DNA from: an uncultured Acidobacteriota bacterium
GTDB lineage: Bacteria; Acidobacteriota; Thermoanaerobaculia; UBA5066; Gp7-AA6
Direction: 5' to 3'
Length of the DNA stretch: 64,000 nt
Assembly: GCA_963773905.1 (NCBI GenBank)
Contig: CAVZDB010000005.1
Span: 181,624-245,623 of the forward strand
In this document: one piece after another, positions 21,953 to 38,315 of the stretch
Layout: every line of letters starts with the position of its first letter
How positions within the stretch are numbered: position 1 is the stretch's first letter
Translations under genes and position numbers: made by a program
The notes under the pieces: model-generated
The model's input: only the letters and a program-made list of their open reading frames with translations
Told to the model about the DNA's origin: nothing
Database searches by the model: none

Positions 21953-21999
21953 GGGGTCAACGCTGAAAAACTGAATTCAGGGATTCAGCATTTGAACCC
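21953..21999. repeat. GGGGTCA-family inverted dimer (GGGGTCAACGCTGAA variant)
   Basis: ggggtcaacgctgaa...ttcagcatttgaaccc; similar copies at 26969 and 31118. Confidence 0.85.
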
Positions 22000-22021
22000 A
22001 TTCCTGTTTGGGGTCTACCGT

Positions 22022-22291
22022 CTACCGGCGTTTTCCGGTCGCGGGGGACTTGGCCTTCCTGGGCTGGGAGGCCGCTGCCTTCTCGACCGCCTTGGTGAGA
22101 CTCTCGGCGAGCTTCTGCGAGTCCTTGCTGGCACGGCCGAGCTCGCCCGCCGGAGCGGTCTCGCGCTTCCCGAGCACCCACTCCAGGGCGTAGGTCATCG
22201 CAGCGCCTTCCGCGATGTAGAAGCCGCTGAGCTCCTTGACGCGTTCGCGGATGGCCGACACCTGGCTCTTGATCTCGTTTTCGGATTTCAC
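22022..22291 (-). CDS. Small hypothetical protein, cassette A copy 1
   Basis: Near-identical to 27032-27310 at DNA and protein level. Confidence 0.75.
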   Translation of the reverse strand: MKSENEIKSQVSAIRERVKELSGFYIAEGAAMTYALEWVLGKRETAPAGELGRASKDSQKLAESLTKAVEKAAASQPRKAKSPATGKRR

Positions 22292-22326
22292 GGCAGGATC
22301 CTGACATAGGCGCGAGGCCCAGGGCA

Positions 22327-22340
22327 GGGGTCAGTCCTGA
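22327..22340 (+). repeat. GGGGTCAGTCCTGA site
   Basis: Exact core, 36 bp from the start codon of cassette A copy 1. Confidence 0.8.
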
Positions 22341-22530
22341 TCCCCAACCCGGCCTCAACAGACTCCTTTAGGCCTGGTGATGAATCGCTGATCGAAAAAC
22401 AGCTTGCCCGTGCCGACCCTGGGGCGTAGATCGGGGGATGGATTCACGAGAATGAGTCTCTACCCAACTGCCCGGCCTCCTGTTCCGCGAAAAATCAAGA
22501 CTGACCCCTACCCTCTCGAGGAGGCACGTC

Positions 22531-24576
22531 ATGCTCAAAGCGATCCCCCGCGTCCTCCCTCGCATTCTGGCTCTCGGCCTTGCGGTCGGCCTCGGACTCG
22601 TCACGCAGCCGGCCGCCGCGTCGGCCGGCGAATGGACCCCGATCGGGCCGACGGGCGTCGGCATGGTGACCGCCATCGCCGCCGGCCGCACCGCGATGTA
22701 CGCCGCGACGTGCGGCGGCGTGTACCGCTCCGACGACGGCGGCGCGAGCTGGCGCGAGACGGGACCCGCGCGCGCCTGCGTCGTCCGGCTCGCCGTGGAC
22801 CCGCGGCCGGACGCGGACACGCTCTATGCGATCGTCGACACGCACTTCTTCGTCTCCCCGCGTCCGGAGCCCAGCTTCATCGGATTGTCGGGACTCTTCG
22901 TGGAGTCCACGCTCTGGGTCTCCCGCGACGGCGGGCAGTCCTGGACGCAAACGTCGGTCTTCAGCGGCCATTCGGTCGCGGTCGATCTCAGTCAACCCGA
23001 GACCGCGTACGTGGCCAACTACGACCCGGCGTATGCCCCGCTGGAAGTGACCCACGACTCCGGAGCGACCTGGAGCCGCGTTGAGAACGCTCCGGACGCG
23101 ATCTTCGCCGAGATCGCATCGGATCCGCGCGACGGGACCCTCTACGGAGCAAGCGGATTTGGAGCAAGCGGATTTCTCAGCATCTATTCCGGGGGGTCAT
23201 GGTCCGCCCTCGCGATCCAGGTCATCAGCGTCGCAGCCGGCTCCGGCTCCGATGGCGCCGTCTACGCGGCGGGGTTCGAGAACTTCTGCCGCAAAACGAC
23301 CGCCGCGCCCTGGAGCTGCACCGGGCTTCCCGGAACCACGGTGATCCACATCGCCGAGATTCCTGCCTCGCAGACGCAGCCGGCGCGAATCCTCATCGGC
23401 ACCTTCCACGGCTTGATGTCGAGCAACGACGGCGGCGCGACCTTCTCGCCCGTGTCGTCCGTCCCCGCCGCCTTCCTCCCCGCGGCCGCCGTCGATTCCT
23501 CAGGGAGCATCGCCTACGTCGGGAACGACACCGGCGTCTACCGCAGCGCAGACCGCGGGGTGACCTGGACCAGCTCGAGCGCGGGCCTGAGCTCCACGTG
23601 GGTGCGGGCGCTGGCCGTCGACCCCTCCGACCCCTCCACGATCTGGGCCGGCGCGGAGAGCCGGATCTACGACGTCACCCAGGCCGGCGCGGGAATCTTC
23701 CGCTCGACCGACGGCGGCCAATCGTGGACCAGCGTCTCCGTGAACGGGGAGCCCGGATATGTCTTCAGCCTCGGCCTCGATCCGTCGAATCCACACAACC
23801 TCTACACCGGCTCCATCGGCAAAGTGGATCGCACATCCGACGGCGGCGTGAGCTGGTCGATCGCCCAGGCCTTGTCGAACTTCGTTTACGCGCTCGCGGT
23901 CGACCCCGACTCGTCTGAGGTGTGGGCGGGGTCCGACGGCTTCTTGACGAAGAGTACCGATGGCGGAGAGACCTGGTCGGTCGCCCTGTCCCAGAGCGTC
24001 TACTCCATCCTCTTCGACTCGCGGCATCCGGGGACGATCTACGCCGGCGCCGCGAGGGAGGACCAGGGCTCCTACTATCCCTTCGGATCCGGTTTCGCGG
24101 TCCAGACCAGCCGCGACGCCGGCGCCACGTGGAAGCGCGTCGGCACCGCGCAGGAGGGCGGGGTAACGGCGCTCGCAACCGATCCCTTCTCCGACAACGT
24201 CGTCTACGCCGGCACATACGCGGGGACGATCCTCCGCAGTCCCGATGCCGGCGCGACCTGGGAGCGGTGGGATTCGCACTACGACGGCTACTCGGTCTTC
24301 GCTCTCGTTGCCGATCCCGCGCGATCCGGCCAGCTCTACATCGGAGGCTGGAACGGCGTGTATCGCTCGCAGGACGGAGGCCGGTCCTGGGTCCTCTTCT
24401 CGGAGGGTCTCGAAACGTATGGCGTCTTCGGTCTCGCCATCACGCCCGACGGCGCGCGGCTCTACGCGGGTACGACCGGCGGCGGCGTGTACCGCCGCGA
24501 CCTCTTCACCGCCGAGCGCGAGCCCCCGAACCCCGTGAGCGCAACGCGTGGGGCTCGAATCGTCCTGCGGCCCTGA
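22531..24576 (+). CDS. Secreted Asp-box/BNR beta-propeller protein
   Basis: GAGGAGG RBS, signal peptide and repeated SxDGGxSW; paralog of 8344-10385. Confidence 0.88.
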   Translation: MLKAIPRVLPRILALGLAVGLGLVTQPAAASAGEWTPIGPTGVGMVTAIAAGRTAMYAATCGGVYRSDDGGASWRETGPARACVVRLAVDPRPDADTLYAIVDTHFFVSPRPEPSFIGLSGLFVESTLWVSRDGGQSWTQTSVFSGHSVAVDLSQPETAYVANYDPAYAPLEVTHDSGATWSRVENAPDAIFAEIASDPRDGTLYGASGFGASGFLSIYSGGSWSALAIQVISVAAGSGSDGAVYAAGFENFCRKTTAAPWSCTGLPGTTVIHIAEIPASQTQPARILIGTFHGLMSSNDGGATFSPVSSVPAAFLPAAAVDSSGSIAYVGNDTGVYRSADRGVTWTSSSAGLSSTWVRALAVDPSDPSTIWAGAESRIYDVTQAGAGIFRSTDGGQSWTSVSVNGEPGYVFSLGLDPSNPHNLYTGSIGKVDRTSDGGVSWSIAQALSNFVYALAVDPDSSEVWAGSDGFLTKSTDGGETWSVALSQSVYSILFDSRHPGTIYAGAAREDQGSYYPFGSGFAVQTSRDAGATWKRVGTAQEGGVTALATDPFSDNVVYAGTYAGTILRSPDAGATWERWDSHYDGYSVFALVADPARSGQLYIGGWNGVYRSQDGGRSWVLFSEGLETYGVFGLAITPDGARLYAGTTGGGVYRRDLFTAEREPPNPVSATRGARIVLRP

Positions 24577-24612
24577 GTTTTGGCCCGGGTCCGCTTCGAG
24601 CTTCGGTGCTGC

Positions 24613-24640
24613 GCTGCTACGCTGCTACGCTGCTACGCTG
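24613..24640 (+). repeat. Short tandem repeat (GCTGCTAC) x3.5
   Basis: gctgctac gctgctac gctgctac gctg, intergenic. Confidence 0.7.
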
Positions 24641-24672
24641 TCGCCGCGATCGCTGGAGGGTAGGAGGTGAAC

Positions 24673-25098
24673 ATGAAGGCTTCCCTGCTCTATCGAACCG
24701 CCGCGGTTCTCTTGCTGCTCTTTGCCGTCGGCCACACGCTCGGGTTTCGCGAATCCGATCCCGCGTGGGGCGTCGATGCGCTTGTTGGCTCGATGCGGTC
24801 ACTTCACTTCGACGTGCAGGGATTCAGCCGGACCTATTGGGATCTCTTTCTCGCGGCGGGATTCTCGGTCGGCGTGCTCTATCTCTTCGCGGCGGTGTTG
24901 GCGTGGCAGCTCGGTGGCCTTCCGGCGGAGACCCTGGCGGTCATGCGCTTGACCGCGTGGGCCTTCGCCGTTTGCTTCGCCGCCATCACGGTCGTGAGCT
25001 GGAGATACCTCTTCATCCTGCCCCTCGCGTTTTCGGGCGTGATCACGCTGGCTTTGACCGCGGCGGCGTGGCGTTCAGGCTCGAGAGCTCAGGCCTGA
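24673..25098 (+). CDS. Hypothetical membrane protein
   Basis: AGGAGG RBS, about four hydrophobic segments, LFAVGHTLGF. Confidence 0.75.
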   Translation: MKASLLYRTAAVLLLLFAVGHTLGFRESDPAWGVDALVGSMRSLHFDVQGFSRTYWDLFLAAGFSVGVLYLFAAVLAWQLGGLPAETLAVMRLTAWAFAVCFAAITVVSWRYLFILPLAFSGVITLALTAAAWRSGSRAQA

Positions 25099-25160
25099 TC
25101 CTGCCGGTCTCCGCGCCGTCTCTTGGCGTGAACAGGTGGCAAAGAAGCTTCCTCGTGCGA

Positions 25161-25186
25161 AATACACGAATACACGATTGACTCCC
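25161..25186 (-). repeat. GGGGTCA-family site matching the RAYT terminal repeat
   Basis: aatacacgaatacacgattgactccc versus tacaggaatacacgattgacccc at 34984. Confidence 0.8.
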
Positions 25187-25198
25187 AGGCCATCCGGC

Positions 25199-25594
25199 CT
25201 AACCGTGAACGTACTTTTGAAGCTCGATCACTGCGCCCGAGCGGGTTCCAAGCTGGTAGACGAGCACCTTGTCTTTCCCAATCGTCAGGACGATGCCGTG
25301 CGTGAGCTTGTCGTCGCTCCTGGTCTCTTTCGCCTGCGGCAACGCGTGGCGATACCAGTCCTCCACCACACCGAGGGAATCCCTGGTCTGCGCGGTGTAG
25401 ATGGAATACGTCAGGCCATTCGTGGTGGAGGGCGGGTACTGGGTTCCGGTCGTGGCGCTCGGGTAGAGCGGCAGGCCCGTCTCGTTCTTCTGATTTTCCT
25501 CCGCCAACGACCGCCCCGGCGCGACAAGCCCGGCGATGACAAGGACAAGGGCCGCGGCGACGATGAGGCCACCGTGTCGGAACTTCATGACCAC
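25199..25594 (-). CDS. Secreted hypothetical protein (cassette-like)
   Basis: GAGGAGG RBS, signal peptide, GLPLYPSA. Confidence 0.75.
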   Translation of the reverse strand: MVMKFRHGGLIVAAALVLVIAGLVAPGRSLAEENQKNETGLPLYPSATTGTQYPPSTTNGLTYSIYTAQTRDSLGVVEDWYRHALPQAKETRSDDKLTHGIVLTIGKDKVLVYQLGTRSGAVIELQKYVHG

Positions 25595-25826
25595 CTCCTC
25601 GAATTCACGTTCTCCTGCGCCAGTCTAACGTTGTCGAGTCTCGCCGTGAGATACAGGAGTGCGCGTCGGCCCCAGAGAGACAGCGAAGTCAGGAAGTCCA
25701 GACTGACGCTGGGGCGGCACTAGAATGCCGGCGATGCCTCCTCGCGGCTGGCGATCCGTATACCCATCCACGCGGCGCTCGGTCGGTGCACCACGCGGCG
25801 TGCGCGAGAGCCCTCGGCGCGACGAT

Positions 25827-26618
25827 CTAGATCATTGTGTAGTGAATCTTGGCTCCGCCGTCTTTCTCGCCAAGGACGAGTGTTGCCTGGATGACATAAG
25901 GCGCCTCGCGTGTGACCCACCACGTGCTCGAGCCGTAGAGCTTCGTCTCGATCTGGACGACCCACGTCTCCGCCGTCTTGCCCTTTCCGGCCGGCACGGT
26001 CTCACGGCCACTGACGCGCAGATGGATCCAGTCCACCGCGGCGCGATCGGTGTCGAACCCCGAGAAGCTGACCTCGTAGCCCTCGCGTAAGGGAAACGCG
26101 TCGATCAGGATTCCGTACATCCCGTCGTAGAAGTCGAGGACGCGGTGGTCCAACTTCGCTACGTAGTCCTGAGCGAAGTCGTCGTCCGAGCCGGGCCTCC
26201 TGAGGAAGCGGATCGACTGGCCGTCGGACTCGAGGTGCCGGGACTCGCCGTTGTCGCTCCGCGTGTAGTCGAAGACATGGACCGCCATCGACTTCGGGTC
26301 GAAGACGTCCACGAACGTGATCCGGATCCCCTTCTTGTACTCGGCGACTTGAGTGCGCTTCAGAGCCGGACGCCCTCCAAAGGAGACCGACTCCATCACG
26401 TCCGTCCACACTCCGGCCTCGACCGGCGCCGACCCCGGCTTCTCGATCGAGAACGACCAACGGTTTGTGTAGGGGTGCAGAAACGAACCATTCACCACCG
26501 GATCGCCGCCCTCGACGCGAGGCCACTCCTCGGCGCTCATCCCTTCGCCGACGAGAAGACACAGCACGGCGCAGGCTGCGGCAGATGCCACCCGTCTGCC
26601 GATGATTGGGATTCGCAT
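25827..26618 (-). CDS. Secreted hypothetical protein, possibly DUF3108-like
   Basis: Signal peptide; VSGRETVPAG...ETWVV beta-rich pattern. Confidence 0.7.
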   Translation of the reverse strand: MRIPIIGRRVASAAACAVLCLLVGEGMSAEEWPRVEGGDPVVNGSFLHPYTNRWSFSIEKPGSAPVEAGVWTDVMESVSFGGRPALKRTQVAEYKKGIRITFVDVFDPKSMAVHVFDYTRSDNGESRHLESDGQSIRFLRRPGSDDDFAQDYVAKLDHRVLDFYDGMYGILIDAFPLREGYEVSFSGFDTDRAAVDWIHLRVSGRETVPAGKGKTAETWVVQIETKLYGSSTWWVTREAPYVIQATLVLGEKDGGAKIHYTMI

Positions 26619-26746
26619 GCGAGCCTCCAAGCCTGGCGCCTCGACCCATCGACGAGGCCGCACTGCCCTTGTTACCGTCCTCCCTGCCGGAATCCAACGA
26701 CGAAGGGTCGAACGACCATTTCGGCCGGCCGAAGCCGTGTCTGTGC

Positions 26747-26770
26747 GGGTCAGTCCAGATCTCTGATCTT
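26747..26770 (+). repeat. GGGGTCA-family site
   Basis: gggtcagtccagatctctgatctt. Confidence 0.75.
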
Positions 26771-26968
26771 GTGCGCAGTCAATGCGCTGGCCACGTCTCT
26801 GTGATCTTCACGAAGCGACCTCGCGAGGGCGTCTGACCCGTGCACGTCGCCAACGTGCTTTCAACCAGTGTTTCGATGCCCTTCGCCACAGCCATGGCCG
26901 ACAGCATCACCCGGGATCAGACGGGTGGCTTCCATTGCAAAGGCCTCCGTTTGATCTGGTCGCGGCCT

Positions 26969-27016
26969 GGGGGTGAACGCTAAAAAGCTGAATTCAGGGG
27001 TTCAGCGTTTGAACCC
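26969..27016. repeat. GGGGTCA-family inverted dimer (AACGCTGAA variant)
   Basis: gggggtgaacgctaaaaagctgaattcaggggttcagcgtttgaaccc. Confidence 0.8.
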
Positions 27017-27031
27017 ATTCCTGTTCGGAGC

Positions 27032-27310
27032 CTACCGGCGTTTTCCGGCCGCGGGGGACTTGGCCTTTTTGGCCTTCTTGGCCTGGGAGGCCGCCGCCTT
27101 CTCGACCGCCTTGGTGAGACTCTCGACGAGCTTCTGCGAGTCCTTGCTGGCGCGGCCGAGCTCGCCCGCCGGAGCGGTCTCGCGCTTCCCGAGCACCCAC
27201 TCCAGGGCGTAGGTCATCGCGGCGCCTTCCGCGATGTAGAAGCCGCTGAGCTCCTTGACGCGCTCGCGGAGGGCCGACACCTGACCCTTGATCTCGGTCT
27301 CGGATTTCAC
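27032..27310 (-). CDS. Small hypothetical protein, cassette A copy 2
   Basis: MKSETEIKGQVSALRERVKELSGFYIAEGAAMTYALEWVLG. Confidence 0.75.
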   Translation of the reverse strand: MKSETEIKGQVSALRERVKELSGFYIAEGAAMTYALEWVLGKRETAPAGELGRASKDSQKLVESLTKAVEKAAASQAKKAKKAKSPAAGKRR

Positions 27311-27351
27311 GGCAGGATCCTGACACAGTCAGGACGGACGCCAGCTAGCCC

Positions 27352-28239
27352 TCATGCCCCTTCGATCGGACCGGGTACACAAACGGTGATGGCACCAGCC
27401 TCCACATGGACATCGAGACGCTTCACCGGAGCCCGGGTGCTTCCATCGAGCTCATACGCCTGCTTGTGACGGAACTCAACGACGATCCTCTTTGCCTGCC
27501 TGATGTCGACGAGCGGGGAGCGGTCGGGGCGACCTCCCGCGACTCGTGAGAAGACCCTCAACCACTGGAAGGCGGTCCGCGCGGTGACGACCCCAACGTC
27601 GAGCTGACCGTCGGAGGGCGAGGCGTCCGTGAAGACGGTGACCCCACCCGTAATCGTACCGATGTTGCCGATGAGCAGACAGCTCGCGTTACCCTCGAAC
27701 CAGATCGTGTCGTCCAGACGGACTTGCATCCAGAGCCGCTTCGCAAACATCGCTTTCACACCGTTGCCCAGGTAGGCCAGGCGCCCCAATCGCCTCTTGG
27801 CCTTGCCCTTCGTGTCGGCGATGATCGCGTCGAATCCCGTCCCGGCCATCGCCGCGAAGCGCTCTCCGTTCAGGACACCGACGTCGAGGCGCCGGTGAGT
27901 CCCCGTGAGTCCGATCTCGACGCATTTCGCGATGTCCCTGGGAATCCCAAGACTCGTGGCCAGGAGATTGCCGGTGCCGGCAGGCAGGATGGCCATCGCC
28001 GTCTCCGATCCGGCCAGGACATCGATGCAGCGCTGGACCATTCCGTCGCCGCCCCAAACGAAAACGAGCGTTGCGCCGTCCTTGACTGCCTTGCGCACCG
28101 CATCAGGCGCCTTCTTGCTCTTCGGTACCTCGTACCAGATGGGTTGCCGATACCCGCGGGCGGCGAGCGCTCCTCGCAACTTCTCCAGACCACCTCCCAG
28201 CGTCTTACCGCTGTGAGCAACGACGGCAATCTCGGCCAC
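27352..28239 (-). CDS. Diacylglycerol kinase family (YegS/DagK-like) lipid kinase
   Basis: WGGDGM, LPAGTGNLLA, GTGFDA and YELDG motifs. Confidence 0.9.
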   Translation of the reverse strand: MAEIAVVAHSGKTLGGGLEKLRGALAARGYRQPIWYEVPKSKKAPDAVRKAVKDGATLVFVWGGDGMVQRCIDVLAGSETAMAILPAGTGNLLATSLGIPRDIAKCVEIGLTGTHRRLDVGVLNGERFAAMAGTGFDAIIADTKGKAKRRLGRLAYLGNGVKAMFAKRLWMQVRLDDTIWFEGNASCLLIGNIGTITGGVTVFTDASPSDGQLDVGVVTARTAFQWLRVFSRVAGGRPDRSPLVDIRQAKRIVVEFRHKQAYELDGSTRAPVKRLDVHVEAGAITVCVPGPIEGA

Positions 28240-28360
28240 GAGGGGAAAAGTCTACTTCTCGCGGGGCCGAGGCGACGGTCCGGGGGGTCCGTACATCAGG
28301 CGTTGGATTCGGCGGCGCAGGAGTATCACCGAACTCGTCGCACGGCGCCCGAGGCTCAGA

Positions 28361-28383
28361 ATCAAAGGATCAGGACTGAACCC
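28361..28383 (-). repeat. GGGGTCA-family site
   Basis: atcaaaggatcaggactgaaccc, 13 bp from the stop codon of the adjacent gene. Confidence 0.8.
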
Positions 28384-28395
28384 ATTGAGTCCCGT

Positions 28396-29123: not shown

Positions 29124-29143
29124 GTGGTCCTCCTTGGGGAGTC

Positions 29144-29548: not shown

Positions 29549-29633
29549 GGAGGCAAAGTTACCATCACGGCGAGATGTGAATGAGATGGCGCCGATGACA
29601 GGACTTGAACTGGTGAGCTGCGTGCGGGCGAAA

Positions 29634-29909: not shown

Positions 29910-29924
29910 GATTTCGGTCAGTCT

Positions 29925-31089: not shown

Positions 31090-31117
31090 TTGATTCTTTG
31101 ATTTTTCGGCGGGTCTT

Positions 31118-31276
31118 GGGGTCAACGCTGAAAGGCTGAATCCAGGGATTCAGCGTGAACCCCATTCCTGCCCCATCGAATCAGATTCAGGGCTGACCCC
31201 AGCTAGCCCCAACCCGACAGCCGTGGTCAGCAGCGAATTCAACGTGGCGAACAATCAAAGAATCGGCACTGACCAC
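31118..31276. repeat. Cluster of GGGGTCA-family sites
   Basis: Dimer 31118-31163, then gaatcagattcagggctgacccc 31178-31200, then degenerate aatcaaagaatcggcactgacc 31253-31274. Confidence 0.8.
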
Positions 31277-31318
31277 TTAACGCTCCTCTCGCACGAGAGT
31301 CTCGAACTCGGCGTTCCG

Positions 31319-32747: not shown

Positions 32748-32825
32748 CTCTCGACGAAGATCTACTACCCAACGTTCTTGCGATCGAGATGACTGAGGGA
32801 CATTTTACATGATTGGGCATTTGGC

Positions 32826-32890
32826 GGTCAGTCCTGATCTCTGATCTCGGGCTAGTTCGCAGAGCGCAATCAGAAATCAGGACTGAACCC
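32826..32890. repeat. GGGGTCA-family inverted dimer
   Basis: ggtcagtcctgatctctgat...atcagaaatcaggactgaaccc. Confidence 0.88.
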
Positions 32891-32938
32891 AATTAGCCCA
32901 AGAACAACCCACCCTGTGCTGCTCTCGACCCGTGAGTC

Positions 32939-33337
32939 CTACTTCTTCAGACTCGTCTTCCAGGTGCCGGTGTCGACGACCTTGCCCTTGTACAACGTCT
33001 CGAACTTTCCCGAGAACGTCGGGCCGGCCTTCGTGCTCGTGATCCGGGAAGAGGCCTTGTGGCCCTTGACCTCGAAGTCGTAGGCGGCCTCGATGGAGTC
33101 GCCCTTCACGGCGAGCGAGGTCATGGGGGATTTCGTTGGCTGCCCATCCAGCACGGCGATGACTTCGCCGGTCCAGTGGCCGCCTGGGCCCGGGGTGAAA
33201 GTGAGTTGATAGCCGCCGCTCTTGCCTGCCTTGTTGACCTACTCGCCGACGTACGTTCCGGCGATGTCTTCCTCGGCGAGCGCTGCGACGGACATCAGCA
33301 TCAGTGCCGACAGGGCAAATGCAAGGTTTCGTCTCAT
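32939..33337 (-). pseudogene. Cassette B copy 2 with an in-frame TAG
   Basis: Colinear with 29144-29548; the Tyr codon TAC is TAG at 33239-33241. Confidence 0.75.
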
Positions 33338-33368
33338 GGAGGCGAAGTTACCATCTCGGCCAGATGTG

Positions 33369-33390
33369 ATCAGAAATCAGGGCTGACCCC
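33369..33390 (-). repeat. GGGGTCA-family site
   Basis: atcagaaatcagggctgacccc. Confidence 0.85.
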
Positions 33391-33402
33391 AATTAGGCCG
33401 GT

Positions 33403-33690
33403 TCATTCGCTATAGTCGACCCATGTGACAGAGTTATAGGTACGCCAGTAATAAATGCGGTCGTCGCTATCGACATAGATCTGTGTCACGGCGTTCGGAT
33501 AGCTACCCCAAATGAGGATGTGTCCGCCGCGGCCATCGGGGCGGACATCCTCGGGTGGGCCCATGCCAGCGCCGGCGATAAATTCTGCTCCCGTGCTTCC
33601 CATCCATGAGTTCATTAACTTTTGTGTGCTTGTACACGATTGGGCCGCGAGTACGGATAGCAGCAGTAGGCTCCGCAGCAAGCGCTTCAT
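33403..33690 (-). CDS. Small putative lipoprotein
   Basis: MKRLLRSLLLLSVLAAQSC signal with Cys; GGAG RBS. Confidence 0.7.
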   Translation of the reverse strand: MKRLLRSLLLLSVLAAQSCTSTQKLMNSWMGSTGAEFIAGAGMGPPEDVRPDGRGGHILIWGSYPNAVTQIYVDSDDRIYYWRTYNSVTWVDYSE

Positions 33691-33814
33691 AGATTGCTCC
33701 TTCGACGACAGCAGGAGGGCTGGCCCAATTGTGCGCCTCCCGCCGCTTCTCGGCAATCGGCTTTTGATTCCGATCCTAGAAATGCGGGGCGCCTTTCAGC
33801 GCCCCGGTGTGCGA

Positions 33815-33894
33815 GGGGTCAGTCCTGATTCCTGACTTTACGGTTCGGCCGGCCCGCGGGACGGTTCAGGCAATCAGGGATCAGGACCGAACCC
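33815..33894. repeat. GGGGTCA-family inverted dimer
   Basis: ggggtcagtcctgattcctga...aatcagggatcaggaccgaaccc. Confidence 0.85.
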
Positions 33895-33939
33895 ACCTTC
33901 CCGCCTGGTCGCCGCCTTGCAGTCTTAATGCAATGATCC

Positions 33940-35006
33940 GGGGTCAATCGTGTATTCCTGTATTTCCCGCTTCGAAGAGGCAAGCCAGGCGGTCGACGTG
34001 ACCGCGAACTGAGTCGTCTCGCGTCATCAACTTCTCGAGCCTGGTCAGACCGCGGTGAAACGTCGACTCCTCGCGCCTGAAGCATCTCGCCATCCGGGCA
34101 ATCGAGAATCCCTCACGACAACCGAGATACGCAGCGATCAGCCGGGTCCGTGAGGCCGCCGAAGACTTTCCGGCCCGCCTCAGCTCTTCCAGGGAGAAGC
34201 CCTCCGCCTTGGCGACCGCATCGGCCAGGCTCTCAGGGGTCCACCCGCTGGGAAGTCGGACGGTCTCCCCCACGATCGCCATGGATCGCTGGACGAACTC
34301 CGGATCTCCCTTGACTGGGAAGCCGCCGGCGACGTCGTCGTAGGACTGCTGGTCGCGGTCTCCCATCATTCGCCGGTAGGCCGCCGCGGCCCCCCTCCGA
34401 TCCGACGCGAGTCGCCCCATCGCGACGTCCAGATCCAGCCAGTCTGGGCCACGTCCGCTTCGGTAGTAGCGATCGCTCGACCACGAGTACGACTCGGGCC
34501 GACTCACCATCCCGGCTCGGACCGGGTTGAGGTGGATGTATCGAAGCAGCGCGAAGAGGTACTTCTCATCTTGAATGAGAAAGGCCTTGTACCGCCCTTG
34601 GAAGAGATGGCCCGATCGCCGGTGCTTCGAGTTGAAACGCTGTGCGTAGAACGAATGCAGCGCCAGCATCGCGCGAGAGAGCGGAAACGGTCCACGCTCC
34701 ACCGCCACGTGAATGTGGTTGCTCATCAGGCAGTACGCCAGGATACGAAGCCGGAATCTCTCCCGGCACTCCGCAAGCCGCTCGAGGTAGATCTCACGAT
34801 CCCGGTCGTCGCGAAAGATGGCCTTGCGTTCGTTGCCGCGGGCAATCACATGGTAGACCGCCCCGGTGAGCTCAACCCGAAACGGCCGCGCCAACGACAC
34901 CTCCGCAGACACCGAGATCCTCTCCCTGCGTCTATCTAAGGTTGTCGCGAACGGTCACGCCCGCGGCGCGGCGAGCGAAGAATTACAGGAATACACGATT
35001 GACCCC
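33940..35006 (-). mobile_element. RAYT-like Y1 transposase unit bounded by perfect 23-bp inverted repeats
   Basis: ggggtcaatcgtgtattcctgta (33940-33962) and tacaggaatacacgattgacccc (34984-35006). Confidence 0.85.
33944..34894 (-). CDS. REP-associated tyrosine transposase-like Y1 HUH nuclease with C-terminal DnaA-C-like helical domain
   Basis: ARPFRVE..GAVYHVIARGNERKAIF, HUH motif YCLMSNHIH, GHLFQGRYKA, catalytic RYIHLNPVRAG and YSWSS; the stop codon lies in the left IR. Confidence 0.9.
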   Translation of the reverse strand: MARPFRVELTGAVYHVIARGNERKAIFRDDRDREIYLERLAECRERFRLRILAYCLMSNHIHVAVERGPFPLSRAMLALHSFYAQRFNSKHRRSGHLFQGRYKAFLIQDEKYLFALLRYIHLNPVRAGMVSRPESYSWSSDRYYRSGRGPDWLDLDVAMGRLASDRRGAAAAYRRMMGDRDQQSYDDVAGGFPVKGDPEFVQRSMAIVGETVRLPSGWTPESLADAVAKAEGFSLEELRRAGKSSAASRTRLIAAYLGCREGFSIARMARCFRREESTFHRGLTRLEKLMTRDDSVRGHVDRLACLFEAGNTGIHD

Positions 35007-35029
35007 TTAGAGCTCTTAGAGCTTCTCGA

Positions 35030-35224
35030 TCACGGCGTCGTCCGAGTGATCCGGGATCTCGAGAAGCGTGAGACAGGGCTTCTGAACCGCTTTCTCTCGT
35101 TTGCGGCTTTCGCGATTCGTCGCGTCTCCCACACGTACCACCCCAAACCAAACAGGGTAAGGATCCCGAGCACCGTGCTCACAACATGAAAGGAGGCATC
35201 TGTCATAGAGAGACAGGCAATCAA
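35030..35224 (-). other. Probable gene fragment (one TM helix) between sites
   Basis: VLGILTLFGLGWYVWETRRIAKA; short, bounded by sites at 35006 and 35282. Confidence 0.4.
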
Positions 35225-35281
35225 ATCACGAAGTCAGCACCGATCGGACCCAGAGCAGTACCAGACTAACCCCGGGACTCT

Positions 35282-35348
35282 GGGGTCAGTCCTGATCTCT
35301 GAACTCGGGCTGCTTCGGAGGGCGAAGTCAGAAATCAGGACTGACCCC
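35282..35348. repeat. GGGGTCA-family inverted dimer (best-conserved copy)
   Basis: ggggtcagtcctgatctctga...tcagaaatcaggactgacccc. Confidence 0.9.
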
Positions 35349-35394
35349 GATTAGCCGCCGAGGCCACGCCGGCGGCGCAGCGGCGGGACAAATG

Positions 35395-35412
35395 GGAATA
35401 CACGATTGACCC
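35395..35412 (-). repeat. Further copy of the RAYT terminal repeat
   Basis: ggaatacacgattgaccc, 16 bp from the stop codon at 35428. Confidence 0.85.
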
Positions 35413-35427
35413 GCTGGAGCTCCGCGA

Positions 35428-35985
35428 TCAGTAGTCCTTCGTCGTCATTGTGATTCGGAGTCGCGTCGTCGGCTGGAGCGATGCCGCGGGTAGAGACCAT
35501 GTCACCTGTTCTTGCTGGCCCTCGCCATTGTCGGGCGCCTTGAACTGCACAATCTCCGACTTCACCGACTCCTCCCCGTTCACTGCGTCGAGCCTCACGC
35601 TGACCATCTTGTCGTGGTTGTGCTTAGGGTTCTGTACCGCGACCTCCATCTCGACTTGGACTTGCCCGCCTGGGAGATCCTTGACGCGCATCCGGATGCC
35701 GGGGTCCCACTGCTTCTTGCGATCAAGGTCTGACCGGAAGAAGACTCCGTCACAGGAGAACTTGCCGAGCTCCCACCATTCGTGCAGGGTGAACCAGCTC
35801 CCGGAGCTCCCGGCCGGCCACTTTACCCGATCGCCGGCGGCAAAATCGGTCTCGAGAACCATCGGTGAATGAAAGGCGTTCGCGTCGACCGGCGTCGAGG
35901 CCTCCGATCCCTGTTTAGCCACGACCTGGGCGCCGGAAGTCGACGCCAATGTCAAAATCCACAATGAAATCAGCGCTATTCTCAT
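35428..35985 (-). CDS. Secreted hypothetical protein
   Basis: Signal peptide MRIALISLWILTLASTSGA; GGAG upstream. Confidence 0.75.
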   Translation of the reverse strand: MRIALISLWILTLASTSGAQVVAKQGSEASTPVDANAFHSPMVLETDFAAGDRVKWPAGSSGSWFTLHEWWELGKFSCDGVFFRSDLDRKKQWDPGIRMRVKDLPGGQVQVEMEVAVQNPKHNHDKMVSVRLDAVNGEESVKSEIVQFKAPDNGEGQQEQVTWSLPAASLQPTTRLRITMTTKDY

Positions 35986-36021
35986 AACTTCTCTCCATCA
36001 GCCGGATCGGAACGGCTCGAA

Positions 36022-36121
36022 GTCAGTCCTGATTGTCTGCAGATCGAAAAAGCAAAGAATCAGTACCAACTCCTTTCTCGACCCCATTTCTACCCGGAAA
36101 AGCAAGAATCAAGACTGACCC
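36022..36121. repeat. GGGGTCA-family sites (degenerate dimer)
   Basis: gtcagtcctgatt (36022) ... agcaagaatcaagactgaccc (36101-36121). Confidence 0.75.
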
Positions 36122-36143
36122 TCCACAAACCCATCGGAGCTAC

Positions 36144-37058
36144 TCAGCTCTCATCGAAATAATCCGAATCCAGGCGCTTCACTTGATACGTCCGAGCTTG
36201 TGAAACACCAATCTCAAAGTCGATCATGAGTTCGGCCAACCGACGCCCATCGATTAAAGCGACCTTGGGATCGATGTGCTCCACGTAGGCGAGTGCTTCC
36301 GCCGAAAATGACCCGGTCGTGATGAAGACGCCCTTCTTCGCGCGTTTGCCGTGCAGAGCACCCACAAACTTGTGGATTTCGGGGCGGCCCACCGTTCCGT
36401 CCCACCGCTTCGCCTGGAGGTAGACCACGTCGAGGCCAAGCCGATCCTCGCTGATGACGCCATCGATCCCTTCATCCCCCGACTTACCGATAGCCTGTCC
36501 AGCGTCCTTCCGCGAGCCCCCGTAGCCCATCTTCAGCAGCAACTCGACCACCAGTTCCTCGAAGAACGAAGGCGATGCCGCCTTCACGCGGGCGATGACT
36601 TCTGCTGCGAGACCTGCTCTGATCCTTGCGTGGGCCGCCTCAAGGGCTTCTTCCGGTGTTTCAGTTTCCTCTTGCGACGTCGCGCTCATGCCAGGCGTCG
36701 CTTCCTCTTGAGACCGGGCCGTCCTGAACTCGACAAACTCCGGATATCGATCGAGAAACTTGATGTCGACTCGGGTGGGAGGATTCTTGAGGACCTCCCG
36801 ACCTCTCTCGGTCAGCTGGAAGTGGCCGCGTCGCGGTGGAGCTGAGGAGCCCGGCTTGCTGAAGGTAGCTTCTCGCCCAAGCGACGCGATTCGCAAATCT
36901 GGTCTGCCGCCCGCTCGGAAGAAGCTCTTCCTTGTCGTCAGGAGTCAGCTGAACTCAACCGCGAGGGCGTTGGCCGCCGCAGCCAATGAATGGGCTTCGC
37001 CGTCGGCGGCAATTTGTAGGAGGGGCAGCATGAATGATTGGAAGTCAGGCACAGTCAT
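36144..37058 (-). CDS. mrr: Mrr type IV restriction endonuclease, frameshifted at about 36850-36960
   Basis: N-terminal MTVPDFQSFMLPLL and LLPSGRQ; C-terminal FFEELVVELL, SGDEGIDG, YLQAKRW and KGVFITT. Confidence 0.9.
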
Positions 37059-37124
37059 GAGGGCTATTATCTGCTCTCTGAGTGGAGTGGTCGCGCACGC
37101 CCCGCCAACGGTCGCAAGCGACAA

Positions 37125-37147
37125 TTCAGAGACTCAGGACTGACCCC
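37125..37147 (-). repeat. GGGGTCA-family site
   Basis: ttcagagactcaggactgacccc. Confidence 0.85.
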
Positions 37148-37171
37148 ACTCCTGCCGAACTAACGTTGCGC

Positions 37172-37459
37172 TTAGGGGCCAGGCAAGTTAACCCATTGAC
37201 CCGAAAACCGCTCATACCAAAGCTTCCGTACTTCTCTTTTGAGATCCCGATCGGTGAGTTTGCGGTAGTCGAGGTGGACTTCGATAATCAGGTCTCCGCC
37301 CATGTGAAGCGCGGAAGCCTCTTCGCTAGTCAGAATGACCGTCTTCATGAGCGGCGCGTCCATCCCATCGCCGATCATTAGGGATTTATTTTGAGGGACG
37401 ACCTCATCTTCTGGGGTCGATGACCGGCCCTCCAGAGTGATGACCGAGTAGGCATTCAC
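37172..37459 (-). CDS. Hypothetical protein; probably extends upstream through frameshifts
   Basis: Lower-GC ORF whose stop is 25 bp from a site; no recognisable motif. Confidence 0.4.
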   Translation of the reverse strand: MNAYSVITLEGRSSTPEDEVVPQNKSLMIGDGMDAPLMKTVILTSEEASALHMGGDLIIEVHLDYRKLTDRDLKREVRKLWYERFSGQWVNLPGP

Positions 37460-37991
37460 GTTGAGGGCTACCGACGTTCCGACGTTGCGGACGTGCGGCA
37501 GCAGGTTAATGGGGCCCGCCAGCCAACTGCCTTCCTAGCGACGGCGCCTCAACCATGAACTCGGGACTCTGAAGCGCCTGAGAGACGTGGAGAGTTCTGT
37601 CTGCTATTAACCAAGCTGCGACAACCGCGAAAATACGCGGCTCCCAGGGTAAGCTGAGCGATTGTTAGAGTTCGCCTGGCTACAACAAGGCTACTCTCAG
37701 CAATCTCAACCGACCTGTCGGCGATACCGTTCGCGCGGCGCGCGAGTTCGTTCGCGTCGCGTGTAAGCGGAAGACGATTGCTTTCCGCTAAAAGATGCGC
37801 GTGCAGGACTTCGAGGCTTGCGCTTCCCCCACATGGTGCGCGCTACGTTTTCGAACCGGGAGACGATTAGGTCGAAGCTCTTCTCGCCAGGGCCGCGTCA
37901 AACCTCGCTTTCATCTCGCCCAGGCGTTCGGTGACTTGTCGGGTTTCAGAGTCTGCGCGTAACGGGGCGCGTGTACGCTAGATCCTGAGCT

Positions 37992-38315
37992 TCAAGGCTT
38001 CTTCTCCTGCAAGGGTGTTGACTCACAAGAATAAGCCTCTCCAGATGCGTGAATGCCTGATGCGACGACGAATACAACATTTCCTCCCAAGTCCGCGGTC
38101 TTGTTTTGAAGTGTCTTCTCGGTGTTCGAGAGCCCGCCAGGCCGGTTCCTGCCGAGCCACCCCATCCCGAAGTCGCCTTGACATTCCCCAGGAACTTGCA
38201 ACCCTTGACAACGTCAGGGTTGCTCGTGACGCGCGCTGCTTTCACCCGCGGGAGTTGTCGACACGCAGGCATTGAATGTCAGCATCGCGACAGCCGTTAG
38301 GATCCTCGAGCTCAT
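37992..38315 (-). CDS. DUF4156-like lipoprotein, frameshifted
   Basis: MSSRILTAVAMLTFNAC lipobox; VKGCKFLGNV...LQNKTADLGGNVV...GEAYSC. Confidence 0.7.

What the first reader, a model, noticed from the sequence alone, without database searches (positions are those of the whole stretch)
21953..38315. Integron-like gene cassette array punctuated by GGGG-TCA-N4-TGA sites around a Y1 HUH (RAYT-like) transposase
Seen: from 25.2 to 38.3 kb about 16 short unrelated genes (secreted proteins, lipoproteins, lipid kinase, metalloprotease, Mrr, fragments) all lie on the minus strand. Most boundaries carry a site with core GGGG-TCA-NNNN-TGA, where N4 is GTCC, GCCC, GTCT or ACGC, plus a related TCAATCGTGTA variant. 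Sites occur at 21953, 22327, 25161, 25685, 26747, 26969, 27327, 28361, 29631, 29916/31090, 31118, 31178, 31253, 32826, 33369, 33815, 33940, 34984, 35282, 35395, 36022, 36101 and 37125. No IntI-type tyrosine recombinase or obvious attC site is visible. Established: RAYT/TnpA-REP enzymes are Y1 HUH single-strand nucleases that act on neighbouring REP repeats. Inference: this could be a gene capture and shuffling system in which an HUH transposase plays the integrase role and these sites play the attC role. I do not know of this architecture being described, but cannot search to confirm.
Basis: partly seen in the sequence, partly recalled or inferred. Interest (0 to 1): 0.92.

Follow-up and report, generated by a model that had tools for sequence, protein, structure and literature searches.

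The report
Tyrosine-transposase end repeats crowding a variable island
The repeated GGGG-TCA sites are the terminal inverted repeats, and stray copies of them, of a published class of HUH tyrosine transposases (TIRYT or "TIRtron" elements), piled up in one variable gene island of an uncultured Acidobacteriota genome; they are not integron sites, and whether they move genes is still untested.

Summary
GGGGTCA-N4-TGA occurs 11 times in the window against 0.06 expected. Eleven of the 14 copies in the 4.19 Mb genome lie at window 14.6-37.1 kb.

The Y1 gene (33944-34912, minus strand) is a TIRYT, also classed as RAYT group 1 and TnpA-REP subclass 2.1. It has a Y1_Tnp domain and a weak DnaA_C-like helix-turn-helix. 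It is flanked by 27-nt inverted repeats whose head fits the published GGGGWSAS motif (Di Nocera 2013; Quentin 2018).

The other sites are orphan single or paired copies of the end repeats of sister TIRYT clades. In genus relatives each clade's gene is flanked by its own repeat type.

Site clusters lie just downstream of nrdJ in at least 11 species of the genus, in a 13-33 kb island of differing gene content.

The sites are not attC. A canonical integron with GCCTAAC...GTTAGGC sites sits on another contig.

Some gene modules are duplicated or reordered between species with sites at their junctions. Most indels in the island are not site-bound. Integron-like capture is therefore unproven; I give it about 0.2.

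Verdict: a new variant of a known kind.

The parts
33940..35006 (-). Complete C-type TIRtron: the TIRYT gene plus its two 27-nt terminal inverted repeats
   Evidence: (I5): arms 33940-33966 and 34980-35006, 27 nt, 96% complementary. One search shows the same layout in relatives.
33944..34912 (-). TIRYT gene, 322 aa: Y1 HUH tyrosine transposase with a weak DnaA_C-like C-terminal helix-turn-helix. HIH lies at residues 66-68 and the RYIHLNP tyrosine at 125, both read from the translation.
   Evidence: PF01797, 52.7 bits. NF047646, 86.1 bits, cut-off 80. Bac_DnaA_C, 17.3 bits, below the 31.5 cut-off. Many homologs carry PF08299. It is the only Y1_Tnp gene found in the assembly.
33940..33966 (+). 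Gene-distal (right) terminal inverted repeat, GGGGTCAATCGTGTATTCC... Its TCA is the complement of the gene's TGA stop codon, and the last five codons lie inside the repeat.
   Evidence: In 13 of the 15 relatives' rows with a GGGGTCA-headed repeat, the repeat head lies 3-7 nt past the stop; the other two lie at 12 and 16 nt. L019_16416 repeats L010.
34980..35006 (-). Gene-proximal (left) terminal inverted repeat. It starts 94 nt upstream of the start codon, and a TTCGCGACAA box lies between the two.
35395..35413 (-). Extra C-type repeat copy, 1 mismatch
25167..25185 (-). Degenerate C-type repeat copy, 2 mismatches
   Evidence: (I2)
13709..13727 (-).
35282..35348 (.). A-type repeat dimer (heads outward, REPIN- or MITE-like). 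It folds as a 67-nt hairpin.
   Evidence: I8.: -24.2 kcal/mol, z -7.5.
32813..32901 (.). A-type repeat dimer, 88% identical to the 35284-35356 copy
   Evidence: D10, I4; z -6.2.
33815..33903 (.). A-type dimer with a degenerate right arm, directly beside the TIRtron
   Evidence: D4, D7
22327..22508 (.). A-type inverted pair enclosing 152 nt of non-coding DNA (182 nt from head to head). A counterpart lies beside module M2 in G012.
   Evidence: I15
36019..36121 (.). A-type pair with a degenerate left arm, just downstream of the Mrr gene
37125..37147 (-). Solo A-type copy. Its head lies 24 nt past the stop codon of ORF 37172-37459.
33370..33390 (-). Solo GCCC-type (D) copy. Its head lies 12 nt past the stop codon of ORF 33403-33756, and its tail abuts duplicated module M4b.
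31186..31200 (-). Solo GCCC-type (D) copy
28362..28382 (-). Solo A-type copy upstream of the lipid kinase gene. The same copy is present in G012 and G022, and homology between the three genomes stops at its head.
27327..27351 (-). Degenerate A-type copy between module M2b and the stop codon of the lipid kinase gene. A matching copy sits in the same place in G012.
26747..26766 (+). Solo A-type copy, 2 mismatches
14618..14631 (+). Solo A-type copy that supplies the stop codon of ORF 14332-14631
11160..11179 (+).
21953..22006 (.). B-type repeat dimer (GGGGTCAACGCTGAA ... TTCAGC.TTTGAACCC). It is cognate to a B-type TIRYT seen in G006 (L028).
   Evidence: (D5); z -3.8.
26970..27023 (.). B-type dimer, degenerate, part of duplicated module M2b
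   Evidence: D5; z -1.7.
31118..31163 (.). B-type dimer
   Evidence: z -4.3.
29943..31073 (-). IS110-family transposase gene. The element appears to sit inside an A-type repeat copy, with the head half at about 29916 and the tail half at about 31090.
   Evidence: NF033542, 229.8 bits. The split site was read by eye.
29139..29580 (-). Module M4a: a 134-aa secreted-protein gene. It is duplicated at 32934-33369 (93% identity).
   Evidence: (D1, D11)
32934..33369 (-). Module M4b: a broken copy of M4a, bounded by an A-type dimer on one side and the tail of a D-type copy on the other
21947..22309 (-). Module M2a: an 89-aa gene plus a B-type dimer. It is duplicated at 26964-27328 (89.5% identity).
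   Evidence: (D2, D5)
27349..28383 (-). Module M3: the lipid kinase gene lying between two directly oriented A-type copies. It is shared at 90-91% nucleotide identity with G012 and G022, where its neighbours differ.
5790..38811 (.). Variable island. It lies between a conserved FAD-monooxygenase-like gene (4383-5789) and nrdJ (38812-41629, frameshifted in this assembly).

Best explanation
The locus is a plastic chromosomal island downstream of nrdJ in an uncultured Acidobacteriota genus. It has been colonised by TIRtrons: about 1.07 kb elements made of a TIRYT gene between 27-30 nt terminal inverted repeats that start with GGGGTCA. A TIRYT is a Y1 HUH tyrosine transposase of the RAYT superfamily fused to a DnaA_C-like helix-turn-helix.

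The window holds one intact element of the 'C' repeat type (33940-35006). It also holds about 25 orphan repeat copies of at least four types (A, B, C and D). These occur as solo ends or as head-out dimers that resemble REPINs or MITEs.

Shown:
- The anatomy of the element.
- Each repeat type is tied to its own transposase clade in relatives.
- The copies are confined to this island rather than spread over the genome.
- Homologous site clusters occupy the same chromosomal position across the genus.

Inferred:
- The transposases cut and join DNA at or near the GGGG|TCA head and spread their ends mostly over short distances. This leaves a strand-biased pile of end copies, and orphans remain after the cognate gene is lost.
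- The repeated ends then serve as preferred, but not exclusive, breakpoints for duplication, reordering and inter-species exchange of the small genes between them. The agent could be the transposase or ordinary homologous recombination.
For: Identity of the enzyme. Y1_Tnp scores 52.7 bits and NF047646 'REP-associated tyrosine transposase' scores 86.1 bits against a cut-off of 80. The C-terminus gives a weak Bac_DnaA_C hit, and many of the 120 listed homologs carry PF08299.

End repeats. The gene is flanked by 27-nt arms that are 96% complementary (I5). Published TIRYT repeats share the head GGGGWSAS and occur as singles, dimers and clusters (PMC3733652 passages; PMC6006769 passages).

Relatives. 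In one search, 16 of 24 Y1 gene rows, the window's own included (15 distinct loci, since L019_16416 repeats L010), have a detected GGGGTCA-headed (one GGGTCA-headed) inverted repeat. The left repeat starts 69-157 nt before the start codon. In 14 of these 16 rows the right repeat head lies 3-7 nt past the stop; the other two lie at 12 and 16 nt. One further row (L015) carries a doubled GGGGTCAGG-type repeat.

Co-diversification. Repeat type follows the protein tree: clade A has support 84/100, C 97/92 and D 98/97, and the 7 labels need 6 changes, which is the minimum.

Distribution:
- The A-type core is found in 19 of 24 other genomes of the genus sampled in that call and in 0 of 16 outside the genus, at 1-20 copies per genome.
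- The copies cluster directly downstream of nrdJ in G000, G001, G002, G006, G007, G016, G017, G018, G021, G023 and G024, and also in G012 and G022.
- As an internal contrast, about 143 GTAG-headed REP-like sequences are spread over 8 of 9 contigs of the same genome. The GGGGTCA-N4-TGA core has 11 of its 14 copies in this one locus.

Structure. The four single sites tested do not fold better than shuffles, while the two A-type dimers fold strongly, with z of -6.2 and -7.5. This matches 'inverted repeats rather than hairpins'.

Breakpoints:
- The lipid kinase module is flanked by conserved A-type copies in G000, G012 and G022. Homology stops at the CCCC head of the right-hand copy in all three.
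- Duplications in G000, G007, G023 and G002 end at sites.
- Unique homology endpoints within 40 nt of a site number 33 of 158 against a null of 3.8%. Restricted to intergenic DNA the figures are 23 of 94 against 13.1%.

Strand bias. A-type copies are 62 on the minus strand against 28 on the plus strand in loci oriented on nrdJ.
Against: - The window's own TIRYT is C-type, yet most sites are A, B or D types with no cognate gene in this assembly. The assembly holds a single Y1_Tnp gene and is 82% complete. Present-day activity on most sites is therefore unsupported.
- The DnaA_C-like domain is below Pfam's cut-off in this protein (17.3 bits against 31.5).
- The C-type head GGGGTCAA meets only 7 of the 8 positions of GGGGWSAS.
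- Nothing here shows cutting, excision or insertion. No sequencing run could be listed to look for junction reads.
- Why copies stay near nrdJ is unexplained. 'Local hopping' is an inference, and inheritance of one ancient colonised island would give a similar picture.
- Gene calls in relatives come from a crude ORF and GC3 heuristic of my own, so distances from sites to gene ends are approximate.
Confidence: 0.78

Rival explanations
1. Integron-like cassette system driven by the HUH enzyme. Under it, the TIRYT excises the DNA between two same-strand repeat copies as a circle and re-inserts it at the head of another copy. Single genes with a site at one end would then behave as mobile cassettes at a fixed chromosomal platform.
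For: - In G000 nearly every boundary between the 15-16 co-oriented genes at 25-38 kb carries a site.
- The lipid kinase module lies between two directly oriented A-type copies. Its neighbours differ in G000, G012 and G022, and the break falls exactly at a site head.
- The order of modules M2 and M3 is swapped between G000 and G012 without inversion.
- Adjacent modules give incongruent nearest relatives. M3 is 95.5% identical between G022 and G012 but 90-91% to G000. M4 is 90-91% between G000 and G022 but 80-85% to G012.
- There are four intra-cluster duplications of a gene fragment together with its adjacent site.
- In G017 a glyoxalase-like gene sits between head-out A-type copies (39001-39647 in the oriented locus). 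The same gene, 92% identical, has no sites around it in G023.
- The platform is at the same chromosomal place in at least 11 species.
Against: - Junction geometry is not fixed. The same module (M4) abuts a full site tail in G000, a truncated site in G022 and a site head at 12 nt in G023.
- Site orientation relative to genes is only weakly biased: 27 heads beside 3' ends, 17 beside 5' ends, and 36 more than 60 nt from any gene end, out of 90.
- Most of about 43 pairwise indels in the island have no site within 60 nt of either boundary (counted by eye, and the pairs are not independent).
- The excess of breakpoints near sites is only about two-fold once the null is restricted to intergenic DNA.
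- Several site clusters have no TIRYT gene: G022 and G021 gave no match with this query, and G001 holds only a remnant.
- No circular junction or empty-site pair was observed.
Confidence: 0.2
2. The repeat copies are passive. TIRtrons merely seeded 27-35 nt repeats, and the host's homologous recombination between these repeats, together with recombination with DNA from related species through the conserved flanks, produces the duplications, permutations and mosaic divergence.
For: - Breakpoints fall anywhere from tail to head of a site, and some sites are truncated.
- Site clusters persist and vary in genomes where this query found no TIRYT gene.
- Conserved flanks at 82-93% amino-acid identity on the left, plus nrdJ on the right, could support allelic replacement of the whole island.
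- Many indels in the island are site-independent, which shows a generally recombinogenic region.
Against: - Repeats of 27-35 nt with mismatches are poor substrates for RecA-dependent exchange. This is general knowledge, not tested here.
- The 62:28 strand bias of copies and the tandem head-to-tail runs of copies spaced 28-59 nt apart in G001 and G007 point to an active, strand-specific insertion process rather than to passive repeats.
Confidence: 0.3
3. The sites are attC sites, so the cluster is a CALIN (cluster of attC sites lacking an integrase), served by the integron integrase encoded elsewhere in the genome.
For: - An integron integrase exists at C4:584516-585490 (TIGR02249, 431 bits against a cut-off of 265).
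- The genes in the window are small, co-oriented and separated by imperfect palindromes.
Against: - That integrase has its own array of canonical attC sites of the form GCCTAAC...GTTAGGC. One search gives 17 matches, which are 9 sites read mostly on both strands.
- The same pattern has 0 matches in the window.
- The window's sites have no RYYYAAC/GTTRRRY boxes, and single copies do not fold.
- They are instead the end repeats of Y1 transposase genes.
- IntegronFinder itself could not be run.
Confidence: 0.02

Closest known systems
TIRtrons / TIRYT (Di Nocera, De Gregorio and Rocco 2013, BMC Genomics 14:522). The same group is TnpA-REP subclass 2.1 of Quentin et al. 2018 and RAYT group 1 of Bertels et al. 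2017.
   Same: - A Y1 HUH transposase longer than classical RAYTs, with a DnaA_C or HTH-like C-terminus.
- The gene is flanked by terminal inverted repeats rather than hairpins.
- The repeat head is GGGGWSAS.
- Repeat copies occur as singles, dimers and clusters at low to moderate number. Bertels reports about 12 occurrences of the flanking 16-mers for group 1 (passages read).
- Several differently decorated TIRYT genes can share one genome.
- One of the best-defined TIRYT groups is from Acidobacteria.
   Different: In the passages I read I found none of the following:
- confinement of nearly all copies to one island at a fixed chromosomal position across a genus;
- orphan copies of four specificities side by side;
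- the stop codon of the gene lying inside the repeat head;
- repeat copies coinciding with the boundaries of duplicated or reordered genes.
The figures and supplements of these papers were not visible to me and may bear on these points.
Classical REP/REPIN-RAYT systems (Bertels and Rainey 2011, seen in search listing only; Nunvar et al. 2010, recalled)
   Same: - The transposase gene is flanked by its cognate repeats in inverted orientation.
- Non-autonomous head-out doublets form long hairpins.
- There is one repeat family per enzyme clade.
   Different: Classical REPs are hairpins with a GTAG head, present in tens to hundreds of copies dispersed over the chromosome. Here single copies do not fold, only 14 core copies exist, and 11 of them sit in one locus. 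The same genome also has about 143 dispersed GTAG-headed repeats of the classical look.
Chromosomal integrons and CALINs
   Same: - A fixed chromosomal platform.
- A run of small, mostly co-oriented, unrelated genes separated by imperfect palindromes.
- Duplicated cassettes.
- Content that differs between species.
   Different: - No tyrosine-recombinase integrase at the locus.
- No attC boxes.
- Junction positions are not fixed.
- Site orientation relative to genes is not consistent in relatives.
- The genome's true integron is elsewhere and uses different sites.
IS200/IS605 family, including its non-autonomous palindrome-associated derivatives (mechanism recalled from the literature; abstracts seen)
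   Same: - A Y1 HUH transposase.
- Strand-specific biology could explain the 62:28 strand bias.
- Short non-autonomous derivatives made only of element ends.
   Different: IS200/IS605 ends are non-identical subterminal hairpins without inverted repeats, and TnpA is about 130-150 aa. Here the ends are 27-30 nt inverted repeats and the protein is about 320 aa with an extra DNA-binding domain.

Membership tests
TIRYT / TIRtron | Y1 HUH transposase core (HUH motif and catalytic tyrosine) of the RAYT superfamily | tested here: met
   PF01797, 52.7 bits against a cut-off of 23. NF047646, 86.1 bits against a cut-off of 80. H66-I-H68 and Y125 in RYIHLNP were read from the translation. Assigning the catalytic role to Y125 is recalled knowledge.
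TIRYT / TIRtron | C-terminal extension with an HTH or Bac_DnaA_C-like domain (subclass 2.1.2) | tested here: inconclusive
   Bac_DnaA_C gives E 0.005 and 17.3 bits, below the 31.5-bit cut-off, on residues 227-285 of the protein. Many of the 120 listed homologs carry PF08299 in the precomputed column.
TIRYT / TIRtron | Gene flanked by terminal inverted repeats, not by hairpin REPs | tested here: met
   27-nt arms, 96% complementary (I5). A single arm folds no better than shuffles, z +0.16. The same layout is seen in 16 of 24 rows, the window's own included (15 distinct loci).
TIRYT / TIRtron | Repeat head fits GGGGWSAS | tested here: met
   A and D types read GGGGTCAG, which matches all 8 positions. 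B and C types read GGGGTCAA, which matches 7 of 8. The paper says 'some' or 'the majority' of repeats fit the motif.
TIRYT / TIRtron | Further copies of the repeats occur in the genome as singles, dimers or groups | tested here: met
Classical REP-RAYT / REPIN | The repeat unit is a stable hairpin with a conserved 5' tetranucleotide such as GTAG | tested here: not met
   The four single A, C and D copies tested give z between +0.16 and -0.95. The head is GGGGTCA. GTAG precedes it in only a few copies (by eye).
Classical REP-RAYT / REPIN | Many copies dispersed through intergenic DNA genome-wide | tested here: not met
   14 core copies in 4.19 Mb, 11 of them in one locus. Relatives hold 1-20 copies each, mostly in one cluster.
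Integron / CALIN | attC sites with RYYYAAC and GTTRRRY boxes forming an imperfect hairpin | tested here: not met
   CTAAC-N45-75-GTTAGGC has 0 matches in the window and 17 beside the genome's IntI. This tests this genome's attC type only. The general attC model of IntegronFinder was not available.
Integron / CALIN | IntI tyrosine recombinase adjacent to the array (integron) or absent from it (CALIN) | tested here: not met
   The only TIGR02249 match above the cut-off is on contig C4, not in the window.
Integron / CALIN | Cassettes consist of one gene plus one site at its 3' end, in uniform orientation | tested here: inconclusive
   This holds roughly in G000 at 25-38 kb. It does not hold across 13 related loci, where the counts are 27 heads beside 3' ends, 17 beside 5' ends and 36 far from any gene end, out of 90.
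IS200/IS605 | Different subterminal hairpins at the left and right ends, no inverted repeats, and a small TnpA | tested here: not met
   The ends are inverted repeats and the protein is 322 aa.

The most novel reading that the evidence does not exclude
In this Acidobacteriota genus the region downstream of nrdJ would be a dedicated gene-shuffling platform. HUH tyrosine transposases of several specificities would use their GGGGTCA-headed end repeats as recombination sites to excise, duplicate, reorder and exchange single-gene modules between species. This would be a cassette system functionally analogous to an integron, built on single-strand HUH chemistry instead of a tyrosine recombinase and attC sites.
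Probability: 0.2. Interest if true: 0.8.

Novelty: new variant of a known kind. Interest (0 to 1): 0.5.

Why it matters
TIRYTs are a very large family. More than 7,000 proteins scored E <= 1e-10 among the 8,000 candidates scored. My search for the term TIRYT found it in only 3 papers of the library, of which 2 were listed, and no function or activity is described in the passages I read.

This locus offers a natural experiment. Four repeat specificities, intact and orphan, share one island that is homologous across dozens of species, and some gene modules have clearly moved with repeat copies at their edges.

If the enzymes do move the intervening genes, that would add an HUH-based route to cassette-like gene shuffling. 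If they do not, the locus is still a clean example of how transposase end repeats accumulate locally and seed rearrangements. It also stands as a caution that integron-looking arrays can have a quite different origin.

Tried and rejected
attC / CALIN: rejected. The genome's IntI lies on another contig beside its own canonical attC array, and the attC pattern is absent from the window.

Genome-wide REP family: rejected. 11 of 14 core copies lie in the window.

TCA-N4-TGA mini-hairpin as the functional unit: rejected. Single sites do not fold better than shuffles.

A conserved accessory gene next to the transposase: rejected. I first took the 681-688 aa neighbours to be one family. The G000 protein is a BNR/Sortilin-repeat protein, the G023 protein tested is a PhoD-like phosphatase, and its 688-aa G007 and 687-aa G024 counterparts match it at 99% and 85%.

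Reads for excision junctions: the look-up of sequencing runs listed no run.

The 90%-identical protein seen was not retrieved, so no strain-level comparison was possible.

The genome-contig scan served only to name the lineage (the closest records are uncultured Acidobacteriota MAGs) and to add two repeat-flanked homologs.

Left-flank choice: the 871-aa gene at 16544-19159 proved not to be conserved, with matches in 3 of 40 relatives, all partial. The true conserved flank is window 17-5789.

The indel scan and the endpoint statistics count pairs of related genomes and are not independent. I collapsed endpoints within 20 nt but did not correct for phylogeny. HSPs shorter than 150 bp or below 85% identity were dropped before those counts.

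The tree used 16 of the 24 rows. I left out rows with truncated or over-long ORFs and no detected repeat, and one duplicate locus (L019_16416, which repeats L010). I kept L025, where no repeat was detected at a contig end; I labelled it A from the right-end repeat seen. The last 5-8 codons are encoded by the repeat itself, which makes the link between tree and repeat type slightly circular.

Supplements and figures of the cited papers were not seen.

G030 was flagged as unpublished. It enters only the tallies as a genome without matches to the site or the Y1 query, and no specific claim rests on it.

Full report
1. What is in the sequence

The motif GGGGTCA-N4-TGA occurs 11 times in the 64 kb window against 0.06 expected from shuffles. 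In the whole 4.19 Mb assembly (9 contigs, 69% GC) it occurs 14 times, and 11 of these are in the window between 14.6 and 37.1 kb.

The sites fall into types that all begin with GGGGTCA:
- A: GGGGTCAGTCYTGATTTSYTGA.
- D: GGGGTCAGCCCTGA.
- B: GGGGTCAACGCTGAA, always seen here as a head-out pair.
- C: GGGGTCAATCGTGTATTCC.

The stretch 25.2-38.3 kb carries 15-16 minus-strand ORFs:
- a DUF3108 protein, a YegS/DAGK-type lipid kinase, a DoxX-like protein, a weak metalloprotease match and an Mrr-type nuclease, plus several ORFs with no Pfam family;
- an IS110 transposase;
- the Y1 transposase.

GC is 58-63% across 26-38 kb.

2. What the Y1 gene is

ORF 33944-34912 (322 aa) matches Pfam Y1_Tnp (52.7 bits). 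It passes NCBIfam NF047646, 'REP-associated tyrosine transposase' (86.1 bits, cut-off 80). Its C-terminus gives a sub-threshold Bac_DnaA_C match (17.3 bits). Many homologs carry that domain in the precomputed annotation, and sources name them RayT, REP-associated tyrosine transposase or putative transposase. More than 7,000 proteins scored E <= 1e-10 among the 8,000 candidates scored.

The gene is bracketed by 27-nt arms that are 96% complementary, at 33940-33966 and 34980-35006. The TCA of the right-hand GGGGTCA is the complement of the gene's TGA stop, so the last codons are written in the repeat.

This is the published TIRtron architecture. Di Nocera et al. 2013 defined TIRYTs as RAYT-like transposases flanked by terminal inverted repeats, many with the head GGGGWSAS. 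They reported repeat copies as singles, dimers or groups, several differently decorated genes per genome, and a sharply defined group from Acidobacteria (passages read). Quentin et al. 2018 place these proteins in TnpA-REP subclass 2.1, with Bac_DnaA_C or HTH C-termini. They equate that subclass with RAYT group 1 of Bertels et al. (passages read). Bertels et al. 2017 report about 12 genome-wide occurrences of the flanking 16-mers for group 1 (passages read). The closest named records holding relatives of the protein are uncultured Acidobacteriota MAGs.

3. Relatives tie each site type to a transposase clade

Among 40 relatives, 25 hold a match to the protein, often in several copies. I located the genes and their flanks in stored loci. 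In 16 of 24 rows, the window's own included (15 distinct loci, since L019_16416 repeats L010), I found an inverted repeat headed GGGGTCA (one headed GGGTCA). The left repeat starts 69-157 nt before the start codon. In 14 of these 16 rows the right repeat head lies 3-7 nt past the stop; the other two lie at 12 and 16 nt.

The repeat body differs by clade:
- C type in the window's closest relatives (55-61% identity).
- D type at 53-55% identity.
- An ACCG type at 49%.
- B type at 47%.
- A type at 44-48%.
- Two further GGGGTCAGG types.

On a maximum-likelihood tree of 16 proteins, the A, C and D labels each form one group, with support 84/100, 97/92 and 98/97. All 7 labels need the minimum of 6 changes.

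The A, B and D sites in the window are therefore end repeats of sister elements whose genes are not in this assembly. The assembly holds one Y1_Tnp gene and is 82% complete. A TCGCGACAA box lies between the left repeat and the start codon in nearly all of these genes.

4. Single sites are not hairpins

The four single A, C and D copies tested fold no better than shuffled sequence, with z between +0.16 and -0.95. The two A-type head-out dimers tested fold strongly, with z of -6.2 and -7.5. Two B-type dimers give z of -3.8 and -4.3, and a degenerate third gives -1.7. Dimers with the same arms but unrelated spacers of 52-256 bp occur at dispersed places in relatives.

5. The island

The A-type core is present in 19 of 24 other genomes of the genus sampled and in 0 of 16 genomes outside it. 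Copy number is 1-20 per genome and the reversed-pattern control gives zero. The copies cluster, and the clusters lie directly downstream of the B12-dependent ribonucleotide reductase gene nrdJ in G000, G001, G002, G006, G007, G016, G017, G018, G021, G023 and G024 (coordinates). The same holds in G012 and G022.

On the other side the first conserved genes are window 17-5789, at 82-93% amino-acid identity and in the same order in G006, G021, G002, G023 and G024. Between these flanks lie 13-33 kb whose gene content differs between species. Most G000 ORFs at 25-38 kb have no counterpart in the 12 other loci compared.

As a contrast, the same genome has about 143 GTAG-headed REP-like sequences spread over 8 of 9 contigs.

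6. Not an integron

An integron integrase (TIGR02249, 431 bits against a cut-off of 265) lies on contig C4. Next to it is an array of canonical attC sites of the form GCCTAAC...GTTAGGC that runs to the contig end. That pattern is absent from the window. The general attC model could not be run.

7. Do the sites move genes?

Evidence for:
- Two duplications inside the window are bounded by sites: 29139-29580 and 32934-33369 at 93% identity, and 21947-22309 and 26964-27328 at 89.5%. Similar site-bounded duplications of gene fragments occur in G007, G023 and G002.
- G007 and G023 share 4.35 kb at 97.4% identity and then diverge completely at a site.
- Four modules recur at 80-95% nucleotide identity in the nrdJ islands of G012 and G022, in a different order. 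They are M1, a methyltransferase-like gene; M2, an 89/92-aa gene with a B-type dimer; M3, the lipid kinase; and M4, a 134-aa gene.
- M3 lies between two directly oriented A-type copies. The right-hand copy is conserved in all three genomes, and homology stops at its CCCC head, beyond which three different neighbours follow.
- Module identities pair the genomes incongruently.

Evidence against:
- The junction geometry of M4 differs between genomes: a full site tail, a truncated site, or a site head at 12 nt.
- Of 90 A-type copies in 13 loci, 27 have the head within 60 nt of a gene's 3' end, 17 within 60 nt of a 5' end, 36 are further away, 7 lie inside called genes and 3 have no gene on that side.
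- Most of about 43 pairwise indels have no site near either boundary.
- Unique homology endpoints within 40 nt of a site number 33 of 158, against a null of 3.8%. Restricted to intergenic DNA, they number 23 of 94 against 13.1%, which is about two-fold.
- A-type copies show a strand bias of 62 to 28 in loci oriented on nrdJ. This fits a strand-specific insertion process and does not need cassettes.

8. Conclusion

The sites and their confinement to one locus are real. The enzyme and its relation to the sites belong to a described kind, TIRYT/TIRtron. I did not find the following in the passages I read:
- a genus-wide island at a fixed position, crowded with end-repeat copies of several specificities;
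- the stop codon of the gene lying inside the repeat;
- the coincidence of some module boundaries with repeat copies.

The integron analogy describes the look of the G000 array. It does not yet describe a demonstrated mechanism, and I give Y1-driven cassette shuffling about 0.2.

Noticed in passing
G000 contig C4:584516-585490 and onward (L006 13448-14641, attC sites at 14986-19077): A canonical integron. The integrase scores 431 bits on TIGR02249 and is followed by at least 9 attC sites of two length classes (59 and 74 nt between the boxes). The array lies downstream of intI on the same side and runs off the contig end.
   Followed up: partly
window 29916-31117: An IS110-family element (transposase gene 29943-31073, NF033542 at 229.8 bits) appears to be inserted inside an A-type repeat copy. 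The head half GGTCAGTCTCGAT lies on its left and the tail half TGATTCTTTGATTTTTCGG on its right.
   Followed up: partly
window 38812-41629; also 21116-21931, 28370-29123 and 36144-37124: nrdJ is split into two overlapping frames, 40238-41629 and 38812-40707, whereas relatives have about 950-aa open frames. Several other genes in the window also look frameshifted or interrupted. These may be assembly indel errors or real pseudogenes.
   Followed up: partly
whole genome G000; in the window e.g. 38570-38743: About 143 GTAG-headed REP-like sequences (GTAGGGGCGG...) are dispersed over 8 of 9 contigs. Yet the only Y1_Tnp gene found in the 82%-complete assembly is the TIRYT of this window, so no classical RAYT is visible for them.
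   Followed up: partly
window 34935-34945 and the equivalent place in loci L008-L014, L019, L022 and L024-L026: A conserved TCGCGACAA box lies between the left end repeat and the start codon of nearly every TIRYT gene examined. It could be a promoter element or a binding site for the DnaA_C-like domain.
   Followed up: no
window 8233-9495 and 22531-24576: Two paralogous BNR/Sortilin-repeat genes, about 70% identical over 2.1 kb of DNA, lie in the island. The left one is truncated in my ORF call. A 53%-identical homolog sits in the G001 island.
   Followed up: no
loci oriented on nrdJ (G000, G001, G006, G007, G021, G023 and others): A-type repeat copies are strongly strand-biased, 62 minus against 28 plus. 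Tandem head-to-tail runs spaced 28-59 nt apart occur in G001 and G007.
   Followed up: partly
G024 locus (L043+L044), about 18916-21312 in oriented coordinates: A 2.4 kb insertion carrying a 744-aa gene lies between two otherwise adjacent conserved left-flank genes. A GGGGTCA head sits 12 nt from its left boundary.
   Followed up: no
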